Assembly: GCF_058153355.1 (NCBI RefSeq)
Contig: NZ_CM177019.1
DNA: 64,000 nucleotides
Reading direction: 5' to 3' (one strand)
The position numbers are program-made. Position 1 is the first letter of the stretch. Each line of letters begins with the position of its first letter. Positions 1 through 3,000 of this stretch are shown here, in pieces.

Positions 1-3000
1 ATTCACTATTGGAAATCTTAAGAAATGGAACAAACAAGTTACAGCAAACTATCACAGCGCGATGTTGATCGCGCAGAAACAGATTTACTCATCAACCTGT
101 CAACGCTTACCCAGCGCGGTCTGGCAAAGATGATTGGCTGTCATGAATCGAAGATAAGCAGAACGGACTGGAGATTTATTGCTTCGGTCTTGTGTGCTTT
201 CGGAATGGCATCAGACATCAGTCCGATTAGCAGGGCTTTTAAGTATGCGCTTGATGGACTCACCAATAAAAAACGCCCGGTGTGCAAGACCGAGCGTTCT
301 GATCAAATACAAATGGAATTTTAACAACATCCAACGAGGTAATTATATGCGAAAAACGCAGGAAAATAAACGCGTTAATCACCGAAAAGATGTGCTACGT
401 GACCAGTTTTATCAGGGGGTTAATCCAGAAATAGCTGTGCCACTGAGAGAAATACTTAACAGGTACAAAACTTCGGAGAAGTCAAAATGAGCATGAGTCT
501 TATGGCTAAGGCCATGAATATAAAGGTTGGCAACCCACTGAGAAAACTGATTCTGATTAAACTTGCCGATAACGCCAATGATAATGGCGAATGCTGGCCT
601 TCATATCAACATGTCGCTGACCAGTGTGAGGTGAGCAGATCGACAGTAAAAAGTCACATTAGGGCACTGGAAGAGATGGGTCTTTTGAAAAGGGAATGCA
701 GAAGAAAAGGAGAGCTTAACCAGTCAAACGTTTTTTATCTGACGCTGGATAATGCACAACAAATCCCACCAGAATCAGGTGGGGCAGGAGCTGCCCGGGG
801 TGGGGCAGGAGCTGCCCTAGGGGGTGGGGCAGGAGCTGCCCCCAGAACCTATCACTCTTTTGAACCAGTCAATGAACCTAAAAACATTATGTTCGAACAT
901 GTCCGAACGGAGTGTGAAAAAACTCCTGACCGTCACGAAGAAACCGACAAGGCATTCGAGGAAATATTCTGGTGTGCAGGCATGCGGAAAGCCGGGAAGA
1001 AAAACGCAGCTTCGGCATTCAGAACACAGTTCAGGGAATGGCGTAAAACTACCAGGGGTACAGCAAGCGAGTTTGCCACAATGCTGGCAGAAGACATCGC
1101 ATGCAGGAATGGTAAGCAGTTCGGATTCGACAGGTTGTTACCATCGAGCTACCTGAACGGTCAGCGCTGGAACGACGAGAAGCCTGAAACCATTCAACCG
1201 CAATCCAAACCATCATCCGCAATTACCGTATCGAAAACTGGCTACGTGTTTTTCGACAGGTGAACCATGAAATCAAAAATCAAATCGCTACTGGTCGCTG
1301 GTTATAACCACGGCTGGTTAAGTATTTCGTTTGTCGATTTCTGGTTTAAAAATCTCGACCTCAGCAGCCATTAGCTCCGTCAATGGCGTTTAAACGCCAT
1401 CAGACGCGCTGTAGCACGATAAACGACGGTCTGACAGGGAAACCGCAAGATAAAAAAATATTGCGTCAGAATGCGATTCAGGACGGTTAAAGTATGAGTC
1501 CATCAGAACTTAGCGACCTGCTTTGGGCGCAGGTTGACAGGGTGGCTCCGCACCTGTTGCCAAACGGCAAGAAAGAGGGGCATGAGTGGGTTGCCGGTAA
1601 CGTCAACGGTGACAAGGGAAACAGCCTTAAGGTCAACCTTAGCGGCAAGAAAAAATGGGCTGATTTCGCTGAGGGAGACGGCGGTGACATGCTTGATTTG
1701 TGGATGGCATGTCGTGGAATTAACCTGCATCAGGCTATGCAGGAAGCGAAAGCATTTCTCGGTATCAAGGATGACGATCACCATTTCGATGCCAGACGTG
1801 AGAAGAAATTCTCCAGACCTGAACGCAAGAAAATCGCCCGCTACGTTACCAGAACAGAATCCCATCTTGAGTACCTGCAATCGCGTGGCATATCGCCAGA
1901 AGTCGTAAAGCGCTACGAGGTTGTCAGCGGCAAGGTGTGGAATGGAGAACGAGAACTGGATGCTCTGGTGCTTCCGTACAAACGCGATGGTGAGTTGTTG
2001 CAGGTCAAGCGAATCAGCACTGAGCGCCCGGACGGGAAGAAAGTCATTATGGCAGAAGGTGATTGCGAACCTTGCCTGTTCGGATGGCAGGCTCTGGACG
2101 CTGGCGTGAGGGCGGTTGTGCTTTGCGAAGGCGAAATTGATTGTATGAGCTATGCGCAATACGGCATCTCGGCGTTATCCGTGCCGTTTGGTGGCGGGAA
2201 AGGCGCTAAGCAACAGTGGATTGAGTTTGAGTATCACAACCTCGACAGGTTTGAGGAAATATTCATCTCGATGGACGTTGATGATGTTGGTCGTGAAGCT
2301 GCAAGGGAAATCGCAAGCCGACTCGGTGAACATCGTTGCCGTCTTGTTACTCTGCCGTACAAAGACATCAACGAATGCCTGATGAACGGTGTTACCGAGG
2401 ATGAAATCTGGCAGTACATCGGCACGGCATCCTACTTCGATCCTGAAGAACTCTACAGCGCGCGAGAGTTTTACCAGGACACTATCAACGCTTTCTACGG
2501 CAAGCAGCAGTATCTGTTTAATCCACCGTGGGAATCTCTGGCAGATAAATTCCAGTTCCGTGAGGCAGAGTTGACGCTGGTCAATGGTGTGAACGGTCAC
2601 GGAAAAACGGAGGTTGTCGGGCATATGGCACTTGAGGCAATGCGTCAGGGGGTGAAGACGTGCATCGCGTCACTTGAGCTGAAGCCAGGTATTCTCCTTA
2701 AGCGCCTTACCCGTCAGGCGACGTGCTGCAAGATGCCGCCAGTGCTGGAAATTGACTCTGCATTTAAATTTTATGACGAAAGACTTTGGGTGTTTGGCCT
2801 GACCGGAACGGCGAAAGCCGACAGGCTGATCGAAATATTCGACTACGCTCGCCGCCGATACGGCATCCAGTTATTCATCATCGACAGCCTGATGAAATGC
2901 GGCATAGGTGACGATGACTATAACGGGCAGAAAGCATTTGTTGACTCGATTTGTGACTTCAAAAACAAAACAAACTCCCACGTCATTCTCGTTACTCACT

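What the first reader, a model, noticed from the sequence alone, without database searches (positions are those of the whole stretch)
778..841. Iteron-like direct repeats inside the O-like replication gene (probable phage origin)
Three exact 19-bp repeats GGTGGGGCAGGAGCTGCCC with 21- and 24-bp periodicity lie inside the initiator gene and are translated as GGAGAA repeats. This mirrors ori-lambda embedded in O, but here it is paired with a primase-helicase rather than a P-type helicase loader.
Basis: seen in the sequence. Interest (0 to 1): 0.35.

Follow-up and report, generated by a model that had tools for sequence, protein, structure and literature searches.

The report
Phage replication origin inside initiator gene
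Three identical 19-bp repeats inside a prophage's replication-initiator gene are very probably the initiator's own binding sites, marking a lambda-style replication origin; the arrangement is already known in related phages, so the finding is real but mostly ordinary.

Summary
GGTGGGGCAGGAGCTGCCC occurs exactly three times (778-796, 799-817, 823-841; spacing 21 and 24 bp) and nowhere else in the 64 kb. It lies in frame in a 258-aa initiator gene (487-1263), upstream of a Toprim/DnaB-type primase-helicase gene (1494-3374).

The origin reading is well supported by comparison, not by experiment:
- The repeats sit where ES18 and mEp043 carry lambda-type iterons. Those phages share this C-terminal domain (93% identity) and helicase (94%).
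- Each copy is a hyphenated dyad, GGGCA-N5-TGCCC.
- Across about 190 related loci, the repeat sequence changes with the recognition helix and wing of the N-terminal winged helix.
- In 14 of 40 intact relatives the copies are read in two frames (GGAGAA or GQELP). Selection therefore acts on the DNA, not the peptide.
- The least stable 40-mer of the gene (850-889) directly follows the array.

The module is the Stx-phage 'Eru5' / phi24B O2-P2 replication unit. An initiator with an internal origin paired with this primase-helicase is already annotated in ES18. It is therefore a new member of a known kind.

One unexpected extra is a 37-nt box (842-878) after the array. It is conserved at synonymous sites across the whole initiator family, whatever the helicase partner.

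The parts
487..1263 (+). Replication initiator gene (258 aa): an N-terminal winged helix, a disordered linker carrying the repeats, and a C-terminal domain.
   Evidence: ORF. Pfam HTH_36 at 6.4e-14 over aa 17-67. PHROG replication-initiation families. The AF2 model is confident for aa 1-93 (pLDDT 86-93) and below 50 for aa 94-153.
487..765 (+). Coding region of the N-terminal winged-helix DNA-binding domain (aa 1-93). The recognition helix is aa 51-63 and the beta-hairpin wing aa 67-85.
   Evidence: AF2 secondary structure. aa 1-47 are nearly invariant across the family, while aa 48-90 vary in step with the repeat sequence.
778..796 (+). Iteron 1, GGTGGGGCAGGAGCTGCCC (dyad core GGGCA-N5-TGCCC at 782-796).
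   Evidence: family logo.
799..817 (+). Iteron 2, identical to iteron 1 and 21 bp after it.
823..841 (+). Iteron 3, identical and 24 bp after iteron 2.
842..878 (+). Conserved 37-nt box CCAGAACCTATCACTCTTTTGAACCAGTCAATGAACC, with GAACC(A/T)(G/A)TCA repeated inside it. Proposed as the core of the unwinding or loading region. It also encodes PRTYHSFEPVNEP.
   Evidence: In 56 distinct loci there are 4 synonymous against 30 nonsynonymous variant codons. Pairwise identity by codon position is 0.92/0.83/0.85, against 0.90/0.98/0.50 in the N-terminal control. All 111 evaluable exact hits in IMG/VR lie downstream of an HTH_36 N-terminus.
850..889 (.). Least stable 40-mer of the initiator gene; the candidate DNA-unwinding element.
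   Evidence: Nearest-neighbour dG is -47.5 kcal/mol, roughly the least stable 1.5% of 40-mers in the 64 kb. It is adjacent to the most stable stretch (the array, 99.6th percentile). The same placement is seen in lambda O and ES18 gene 59.
891..908 (.). Imperfect palindrome GTTCGAACATGTCCGAAC, at the right edge of the origin region.
   Evidence: ES18 has GTCCGAAAGTGTTCGGAC at the same place, and lambda has ATTCGTCAGAGAATTCTGGCGAAT after its A-rich tract. The gap from last iteron to palindrome is 49 nt here, 50 nt in ES18 and about 41 nt in lambda.
874..1260 (+). C-terminal domain coding region (aa 130-258), shared with lambda-O-type initiators of ES18, mEp043 and Sf101. Presumed to be the surface that recruits the helicase.
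   Evidence: 120/129 identical (93%) to ES18 gp59 aa 154-282. DNA similarity to these phages begins at window 879.
1267..1374 (+). Small ORF (35 aa) between the initiator and helicase genes, at the position of ES18 gene 60. No family match.
1494..3374 (+). Bifunctional primase-helicase (626 aa, T7 gp4-like), the partner of the initiator.
   Evidence: Toprim_2 at 3.1e-12, AAA_25 and DnaB_C. PHROG 239 'DNA primase/helicase' at 1.6e-171. 94% identical to ES18 gp61.

Best explanation
The three repeats are the iterons of the prophage's replication origin. They are embedded in the linker-coding part of its own initiator gene, as in ori-lambda.

Proposed mechanism, with the basis of each step:
1. Dimers of the initiator's N-terminal winged-helix domain bind each GGGCA-N5-TGCCC dyad. 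The half-site centres are one helical turn apart. This is inferred from the dyad, the fold and covariation.
2. Three dimers on sites spaced 21 and 24 bp apart form an O-some-like complex. This is inferred by analogy with lambda.
3. The complex strains and opens the adjacent low-stability segment 842-889. That segment contains a family-wide conserved 37-nt box. Low stability and conservation are shown; opening is inferred.
4. The C-terminal domain recruits the T7-gp4-like primase-helicase encoded just downstream. That enzyme would load on the opened strands and prime synthesis without a P-type or DnaC-type loader. This step is inferred.

The Gly/Ala peptide is a tolerated by-product of placing the sites in a disordered linker. 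Because the copies are perfect tandem units, the array gains and loses units by slippage or unequal exchange.
For: 1. **Positional equivalence.** ES18 and mEp043 share the C-terminal domain (93% aa) and the primase-helicase (94% aa). In the same place they carry four lambda-type iterons with spacing 20/24/23: ATCCCTCAAAATGAGGGA in ES18 and TGTCACCAAAACGGTGACA in mEp043. The ES18 record annotates this as rep_origin. The lambda record annotates the near-identical sites as 'ori iteron 1-4'. The mosaic joint falls at window 879, just right of the array, so binding domain and repeats were exchanged as one unit.
2. **Covariation.** All 40 distinct intact loci with helix E[VI][SG]RS[ST]VK.H and wing RREFRR.GELNQSN carry GGGCAGGAGCTGCCC-type repeats. 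None of about 38 loci with helix ECSKSAVRNHIDAL does. At least six helix/wing classes each have their own repeat.
3. **Frame independence.** In 14 of 40 intact type-A genes the copies lie in two reading frames. An example is L019: frames 1,0,0,0,1,1, spacing 17/24/21/22/24, peptide GGAGAA...GQELP...GGAGAA.
4. **Dyad logo.** Across 98 distinct copies the pattern is GG.CA-N5-TG.CC. The mirrored positions are complementary in 86-97 of 98 copies, and the central 5 nt are less conserved.
5. **Domain placement.** AF2 places the repeats in a low-confidence linker directly after a confident winged helix.
6. **Unwinding candidate.** The least stable 40-mer of the gene directly follows the array, as it does in lambda O and ES18 gene 59.
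7. **Isolated phages.** Phages isolated as virions carry 2 copies (SI5), 3 (Min27; phi24B matches at 97.5% but its repeats were not counted) and at least 6 (phiKp_30).
8. **Definition met.** The lambda definition of four 18-bp hyphenated-dyad iterons plus a 39-bp high-AT region is taken from PMC6022878.
Against: - There is no binding, unwinding or replication experiment for this initiator family. Neither the Eru5 paper nor the phi24B paper mentions repeats.
- In this window all three copies are identical and in one frame. DNA-level selection is therefore inferred from relatives whose N-terminal domains are 75-84% identical, not shown for this locus.
- One-copy variants exist with intact initiator genes (L003, L012) and, in L003, an annotated though only partly read helicase gene; there is also a protein cluster with 27 members. 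A single iteron would be unusual for a working origin.
- Copy number runs from 1 to 10. The 10-copy array is homogenised around a variant (GCTGACC) that weakens the dyad. That is ordinary tandem-repeat dynamics.
- The flank is only moderately AT-rich: GC 0.35, against 0.20-0.24 in lambda, ES18 and mEp043.
- The covariation counts are not corrected for shared ancestry.
Confidence: 0.8

Rival explanations
1. The array is only a slippage-prone coding tandem repeat (VNTR) that sets the length of a flexible Gly/Ala linker. It has no DNA-level function, and the origin lies elsewhere.
For: - The copies are perfect and in frame in this window.
- Copy number varies from 1 to 10 among near-identical prophages, with whole arrays homogenised.
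- The region is predicted to be disordered.
- Many database proteins are 'partial' and end inside the array, as expected for an assembly-breaking repeat.
Against: - Relatives keep the DNA unit while reading it in two frames within intact genes, 14 of 40.
- The unit has a conserved hyphenated dyad with a variable centre.
- Its sequence tracks the recognition helix and wing.
- It occupies the exact position of the lambda-type iterons in ES18 and mEp043.
- No other repeat cluster was found in 1-3000.
Confidence: 0.07
2. The repeats are genuine initiator-binding sites, but they serve regulation: autorepression or a roadblock to transcription, titration, or handcuffing. They are not the site where replication starts.
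For: The dyad, covariation and frame-independence evidence shows only that a protein recognises the DNA. In iteron plasmids the same sites also serve copy control (general knowledge; PMC4980987 listed).
Against: The sites are followed by the least stable segment of the gene and a palindrome, with lambda/ES18 geometry: 49 nt against 50 nt. No other candidate origin was seen in the module. In lambda the homologous arrangement is the origin.
Confidence: 0.08
3. The conserved feature acts in the transcript. Each unit forms a GC-rich hairpin (GGGCAG/CUGCCC) that pauses ribosomes or alters mRNA stability.
For: The single strand folds better than shuffles (z = -2.65), with one hairpin per unit. RNA-level selection would also be independent of reading frame.
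Against: - There is no Rfam match. The only hit is a spurious snoRNA, 20.6 bits against a gathering score of 100.
- An RNA role does not explain covariation with the DNA-binding helix and wing.
- The stem is broken in many functional-looking arrays, for example GCTGACC.
- The conserved positions are the outer half-sites, spaced one helical turn apart, as for a dimeric DNA binder.
Confidence: 0.03

Closest known systems
ori-lambda inside gene O (NC_001416, iterons 39034-39118)
   Same: Direct repeats of 18-19 bp with hyphenated dyad symmetry, spaced 20-24 bp, lie inside the initiator ORF between the DNA-binding and partner-binding domains. They are followed by the least stable segment of the gene and then a palindrome.
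   Different: - The N-terminal domain is HTH_36, not Phage_rep_O.
- There are three identical GC-rich copies instead of four diverged A-tract copies.
- The flank is a conserved 37-nt box at GC 0.35, not a 39-bp A-rich tract at GC 0.22.
- The partner is a primase-helicase, not the P loader.
Salmonella phage ES18 replication module (gene 59 with annotated rep_origin, gene 60, gene 61 primase/helicase); also mEp043, Sf101, epsilon34, g341c
   Same: The initiator C-terminal domain is 93% identical and the primase-helicase 94% identical. The small ORF between them, the gene order cII / small ORF / initiator / helicase / NinB, and the distance from last iteron to palindrome (49 vs 50 nt) all match.
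   Different: The N-terminal domain, the iteron sequence and number, and the tract right of the iterons are all replaced. The swap joint is at window 879.
'Eru5' replication unit of Stx phages (representative Stx2a_F403, AP012529); phi24B / Min27 'O2-P2'
   Same: The module is 97.5-98% identical in DNA. Min27, the one of these read here, has the same three repeats. Published descriptions are in PMC8951638 and PMC3430580.
   Different: Those papers classify the genes but do not mention repeats or an origin. phi24B and Min27 P carry an intein that this 626-aa version lacks. The Min27 record has a 1-nt gap that truncates O.
P22 gene 18 and phage L gene 18 origins
   Same: Distant O-type initiators, each with its own set of repeats inside the coding region, read as origin iterons from sequence (PMC8022706).
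   Different: Different initiator sequence families and repeat sequences (11 bp x 6 in L). Their partner is a DnaB-type helicase.
Iteron plasmids with winged-helix Rep proteins (RK2 TrfA, F RepE; staphylococcal RepA_N)
   Same: A winged-helix initiator, iterons, and an adjacent unwinding element. In RK2 and F the repeated sequence motifs of that element are bound strand-specifically by Rep (PMC4081077). The best Foldseek hits include the RepA_N N-terminal domain (4pql, 4pt7, 5kbj).
   Different: The structural matches are weak (E about 2e-3, generic winged helix) and there is no sequence relationship. This is a phage module, and the initiator has a single winged helix.

Membership tests
Lambda-type origin embedded in the initiator gene | Several direct repeats of about 18-19 bp, each with internal hyphenated dyad symmetry. 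| tested here: met
   Three exact 19-mers, each containing GGGCA-N5-TGCCC. Family logo. Definition from PMC6022878.
Lambda-type origin embedded in the initiator gene | Repeat spacing of about two helical turns (20-24 bp). | tested here: met
   21 and 24 bp here. Lambda and ES18 have 20/24/23.
Lambda-type origin embedded in the initiator gene | Repeats lie inside the initiator ORF, between the N-terminal DNA-binding domain and the C-terminal partner domain. | tested here: met
   Codons 98-118, directly after the winged helix (aa 1-93) and before the ES18-shared domain (aa 130-258).
Lambda-type origin embedded in the initiator gene | An adjacent AT-rich region of about 40 bp that is prone to unwinding. 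| tested here: inconclusive
   The least stable 40-mer of the gene (850-889) is in the right place. However, GC is 0.35 against 0.20-0.24 in lambda, ES18 and mEp043, and dG is -47.5 against about -44 kcal/mol.
Lambda-type origin embedded in the initiator gene | Iteron sequence co-varies with the initiator's DNA-binding domain among relatives. | tested here: met
   A perfect partition over about 78 distinct loci, and at least six specificity classes. Not corrected for phylogeny.
Lambda-type origin embedded in the initiator gene | The initiator binds the repeats, and the region supports initiation of replication. | not testable with these tools
   Needs EMSA or footprinting and a mini-replicon or origin-mapping experiment.
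Lambda O protein family (Pfam Phage_rep_O, PF04492) | The N-terminal domain matches Phage_rep_O. | tested here: not met
   The window protein matches HTH_36 and related winged-helix models only. ES18 gp59 and mEp043 gp54 match Phage_rep_O at 1e-35 and 1e-37. N-terminal halves show no BLASTP similarity.
ES18-type initiator / primase-helicase module | Shared initiator C-terminal domain and a T7-gp4-like Toprim + DnaB-fold helicase immediately downstream. | tested here: met
   93% and 94% aa identity. Domain content.
Eru5 / phi24B O2-P2 replication unit of Stx phages | An HTH_36 protein followed by the primase gene downstream of cI-cro-cII, near-identical to the F403, 24B and Min27 sequences. | tested here: met
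   95% coverage at 97.5-98.1% identity to Stx2_EH2085, Min27, F403, F451 and 24B. Eru5 definition in PMC8951638.
Plain coding tandem repeat (peptide-level low-complexity linker) | Conservation is explained by the peptide: a constant reading frame, with synonymous sites free to vary. | tested here: not met
   The same DNA unit is read as GGAGAA or GQELP within single intact ORFs in 14 of 40 loci.

The most novel reading that the evidence does not exclude
The 37-nt box after the iterons (842-878; family consensus CCAGAACCAGTCACTCTTTTGAACCAGTCAATGAACC) may be a sequence-specific core of the origin, shared by the whole HTH_36 phage-initiator family. It would be an unwinding or loading element read as DNA. 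One candidate reader is the invariant first 47 residues of the initiator, acting on one strand, as TrfA and RepE read the 13-mers of their unwinding elements. The iterons alone would carry specificity. On this reading, one portable module of binding domain, iterons and box can drive lambda-P, DnaC/DnaB, DnaB or primase-helicase partners. Iteron copy number (1-10) would then be a natural dial on Stx-phage replication.
Probability: 0.35. Interest if true: 0.55.

Novelty: new member of a known kind. Interest (0 to 1): 0.35.

Why it matters
- **A testable origin for Eru5 phages.** Eru5-type Stx2a phages (phi24B, Min27, F403, Xuzhou21) occur in outbreak O157:H7 strains, and toxin output follows phage replication. 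Their replication unit has so far been classified only by gene content (PMC8951638, PMC3430580). Placing the probable origin at 778-908 gives a concrete target for binding, mini-replicon and copy-number experiments.
- **Assembly and annotation.** The array explains why short-read assemblies and several deposited phage records break inside this gene.
- **A specificity map.** The comparison gives a ready map of recognition helix and wing against iteron sequence, with at least six classes, for a very large and uncharacterised family of HTH_36 phage initiators.
- **An unexplained element.** The conserved flanking box is not accounted for by current origin models.

Tried and rejected
- **Rfam, 1-3500, permissive threshold:** the only hit is a spurious snoRNA, 20.6 bits against a gathering score of 100.
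- **Promoter and terminator scan, 300-1600:** nothing stands out. The only site touching the region is the palindrome 891-908 read as a minus-strand terminator-like hairpin.
- **Extra initiator sites elsewhere:** GGGCA-N5-TGMCC with one mismatch gives 16 matches against 10 expected. All exact matches are the three copies, so there is no second cluster such as an operator.
- **ssDNA folding of 770-915:** z = -2.65, but this reflects one small hairpin per palindromic unit and does not discriminate between models.
- **PDB sequence search:** no relative. Foldseek gives only generic winged-helix matches at E >= 2e-3, so no homology claim is made.
- **Literature:** searches for the repeat, the box or the SHSFEPV peptide, and for HTH_36 with iterons, found nothing relevant.
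- **Frameshift idea:** I considered that the box might be a programmed frameshift or frame-correcting site, because TTT-TGA lies in one alternative frame. In 81 of 83 distinct loci the box is simply in frame with the N-terminus, so I dropped it.
- **Host-factor sites:** by eye the box does not fit the DnaA-box or IHF consensus. This was not tested formally.
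Full report
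**Observation.** The sequence GGTGGGGCAGGAGCTGCCC is present exactly three times, at 778-796, 799-817 and 823-841, with start-to-start spacing of 21 and 24 bp. With up to three mismatches allowed there are no further matches on either strand of the 64 kb. Dinucleotide-preserving shuffles give a mean of 0.02 matches, and none of 100 reaches three. TRF finds the same array. Position 778 is the first base of codon 98 of ORF 487-1263, so the copies are translated as GGAGAA separated by R and LG. Each copy contains the inverted repeat GGGCAG-GAG-CTGCCC.

**Context.** The surrounding genes form a lambdoid early-right operon:
- cII, 25-324 (Phage_CII, 1.9e-34);
- a 47-aa ORF, 347-490;
- the initiator, 487-1263 (HTH_36; PHROG 'replication initiation protein' and 'replication initiation O-like');
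- a 35-aa ORF;
- a 626-aa Toprim_2 + DnaB_C/AAA_25 protein, 1494-3374 (PHROG 239, 'DNA primase/helicase', 1.6e-171);
- then NinB, Dam, a Gp49/HTH_3 pair, two antirepressors, YbcO, RusA, Q and two tRNAs.

The first 3.4 kb are 97.5-98% identical to Stx2a phages Stx2_EH2085, Min27, F403, F451, phi24B and Xuzhou21-Stx2a. This is the 'Eru5' replication unit of Fagerlund et al. (PMC8951638) and the 'O2/P2' system of phi24B and Min27 (PMC3430580). Neither paper mentions repeats or an origin.

**Positional equivalence with known iterons.** Many phages match the window only from position 879 onward: ES18, mEp043, Sf101, epsilon34, g341c and SEN22.
- The window initiator's aa 130-258 are 93% identical to ES18 gp59 aa 154-282, and the primase-helicases are 94% identical. 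The N-terminal halves are unrelated: HTH_36 here, Phage_rep_O in ES18 and mEp043.
- Just left of the joint, ES18 carries four ATCCCTCAAAATGAGGGA repeats and mEp043 four TGTCACCAAAACGGTGACA repeats. Both sets have spacing 20/24/23.
- The ES18 record annotates this stretch as rep_origin 'similar to lambda ori'. The lambda record annotates the near-identical sites as ori iterons 1-4.
- The distance from the last repeat to a palindrome that opens the shared segment is 49 nt in the window, 50 nt in ES18 and about 41 nt in lambda.

The DNA-binding domain and the repeats were therefore exchanged together, as one cassette, at the place where lambda-type initiators keep their origin.

**Selection acts on the DNA, not the peptide.** A protein search with aa 1-97 showed that the linker peptides of relatives alternate between GGAGAA and GQELP. 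These are the same DNA, GGGGCAGGAGCTGCC, read in two frames. I fetched 80 IMG/VR loci with a profile of the N-terminal domain. Among 40 distinct intact type-A genes with at least two copies, 14 have copies in more than one frame. They share a conserved spacing pattern of 17, 21/24, 21, 22, 24. L019, a 300-aa ORF, is an example. The logo of 98 distinct copies is GG.CA-N5-TG.CC. The mirrored outer positions are complementary in 86-97 of 98 copies, and the central five bases are less conserved. That is a hyphenated dyad with half-sites one helical turn apart, as expected for a dimeric helix-turn-helix protein and as in the lambda iteron definition (PMC6022878).

**Covariation with the binding domain.** AF2 gives a confident winged helix for aa 1-93 (pLDDT 86-93), with the recognition helix at 51-63 and the wing at 67-85. 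It gives a low-confidence linker for aa 94-153. Residues 1-47 are almost invariant in the family, whereas residues 48-90 vary.
- Every intact locus with the helix/wing type of the window carries GGGCAGGAGCTGCCC-type repeats. None of about 38 loci with helix ECSKSAVRNHIDAL does.
- After adding 120 further loci, at least six helix/wing classes each have their own repeat: GGTGCAGGAGATTCACC, CCCCTATGCCAYCAGATGGCAC, CCTGTGCCGCCAAAAAGCACAG, CCTGTAGGCCCAGA, AAATGCTGCACC and the type-A unit.
- These counts are not corrected for shared ancestry.

**The flank.** The 40-mer 850-889 is the least stable of the gene (-47.5 kcal/mol, roughly the least stable 1.5% of the window). It abuts the most stable stretch, the array. 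In lambda O and ES18 gene 59 the least stable 40-mer likewise follows the iterons. The window's flank is less AT-rich, with GC 0.35 against 0.20-0.24, though it is similarly G-poor on the top strand.

This flank contains a 37-nt box (842-878; family consensus CCAGAACCAGTCACTCTTTTGAACCAGTCAATGAACC) with internal GAACCAGTCA repeats.
- Over 56 distinct loci the box shows 4 synonymous against 30 nonsynonymous variant codons, and flat identity across codon positions (0.92/0.83/0.85).
- The strongly conserved N-terminal coding region shows 66 against 27, and 0.90/0.98/0.50.
- All 111 evaluable exact occurrences of its core in IMG/VR lie downstream of an HTH_36 N-terminus, and 81 of 83 distinct ones are in frame with it.
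- The downstream partner varies: lambda-P type, DnaC-like plus DnaB, DnaB alone, or the primase-helicase.

The box therefore belongs to the cassette of binding domain and iterons, not to the helicase. Its role is not established. A sequence-specific unwinding or loading element is the most economical reading. The precedent is the 13-mers of the RK2 and F unwinding elements, which are read by winged-helix Rep proteins (PMC4081077). A peptide motif homogenised by recombination is the alternative.

**Copy number.**
- One copy: K56-43-un (L003) and L012.
- Two: phage SI5 and L015.
- Three: the window and Min27. In addition, 57 of the 60 best complete E. coli genomes, from several serotypes, have a gene length of 777 nt, which corresponds to three copies.
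- Four: L011. Five: L004.
- Six: L013 and L014. phiKp_30 has at least six. Three E. coli genomes have an 840-nt gene, which corresponds to six.
- Ten: UTAK-8, all with the variant GCTGACC.

The array thus behaves as an unstable perfect tandem repeat with three as the usual state. The intact one-copy genes are the main point against a strict multi-iteron requirement.

**Verdict.** It remains untested by experiment. The rivals are a pure coding VNTR, binding sites with only a regulatory role, and mRNA hairpins. Each fails at least one test. The protein is not a member of the Phage_rep_O family, although it works like lambda O. The pairing with a primase-helicase is already annotated in ES18 and noted for Salmonella typing phages (PMC10307801). 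This is a new member of a known kind. Its modest added value is a candidate origin for Eru5 Stx phages, a helix-to-iteron specificity map for a large initiator family, and an unexplained conserved box.

Noticed in passing
window 842-878: A 37-nt box after the repeats is conserved at all three codon positions across the whole HTH_36 initiator family: 4 synonymous against 30 nonsynonymous variant codons in 56 loci. It always lies downstream of that N-terminal domain, and it is independent of helicase partner type.
   Followed up: partly
window 891-908 (also L007:1514-1531 and L210:561-584): The imperfect palindrome GTTCGAACATGTCCGAAC lies at the right edge of the origin region. ES18 has a different palindrome at the same place, with one paired double change. 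Lambda has its own after the A-rich tract. On the minus strand the window's palindrome scans as a terminator-like hairpin followed by a T run.
   Followed up: partly
window 718-727 and 863-872: The 10-mer AACCAGTCAA occurs on both sides of the array. Upstream it encodes the NQS of the wing. Downstream it sits in the box, where the alternative frame also reads NQS. This may be coincidence or a trace of an old duplication.
   Followed up: no
L009 (phiKp_30) start; hits H12, H35, H36; proteins P0001-P0016: Several deposited phage genomes begin or end inside this array. Many database copies of the protein are 'partial' and stop in the repeats. The array evidently breaks assemblies, so copy numbers from short-read data are unreliable.
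   Followed up: partly
L001 (Min27) 1873-4455, against window 1494-3374: The primase-helicase of Min27 and phi24B is about 900 bp longer. The phi24B paper attributes this to an intein at residues 372-702. The window's 626-aa version, like that of ES18, lacks it.
   Followed up: partly
L001 (Min27 RefSeq), equivalent of window 893: The Min27 record has a single-base gap relative to the window, ES18 and an E. coli prophage. It puts the initiator's C-terminal domain out of frame, so O is annotated as 222 aa. Most E. coli chromosomal matches listed have the full 777-nt gene, so this is probably a sequencing error.
   Followed up: partly
proteins P0083, P0085, P0079; L138: There are recurrent 140-aa truncated initiators in which a frame change inside the array makes the box read PE(S/P)VTLLNQS.N and then stop. 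This leaves only the DNA-binding domain. They could be decayed prophages or trans-acting origin binders.
   Followed up: no
window 347-490: A 47-aa ORF overlaps the initiator start. It is conserved at this position in ES18 (gene 58), mEp043 (DUF2740), S107 and SI5. PHROG labels it 'tail protein', which does not fit its place in the replication operon.
   Followed up: no
window 4631-5339 (- strand): A Gp49 (DUF891, HigB-like) and HTH_3 gene pair lies on the opposite strand between Dam and the antirepressor genes. It looks like a toxin-antitoxin-type moron.
   Followed up: no
window 8691-8846: tRNA-Asn (GTT) and tRNA-Thr (TGT) genes lie just downstream of the Q antiterminator gene (7813-8469).
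   Followed up: no
L005 (SI5) and L008 (S107), against the window: The same primase-helicase is paired with a second, unrelated initiator C-terminal domain (...MPEGFSPSASHQKMAEE...). Two different C-terminal domains therefore serve one helicase type, which weakens a simple one-domain-one-partner rule.
   Followed up: no
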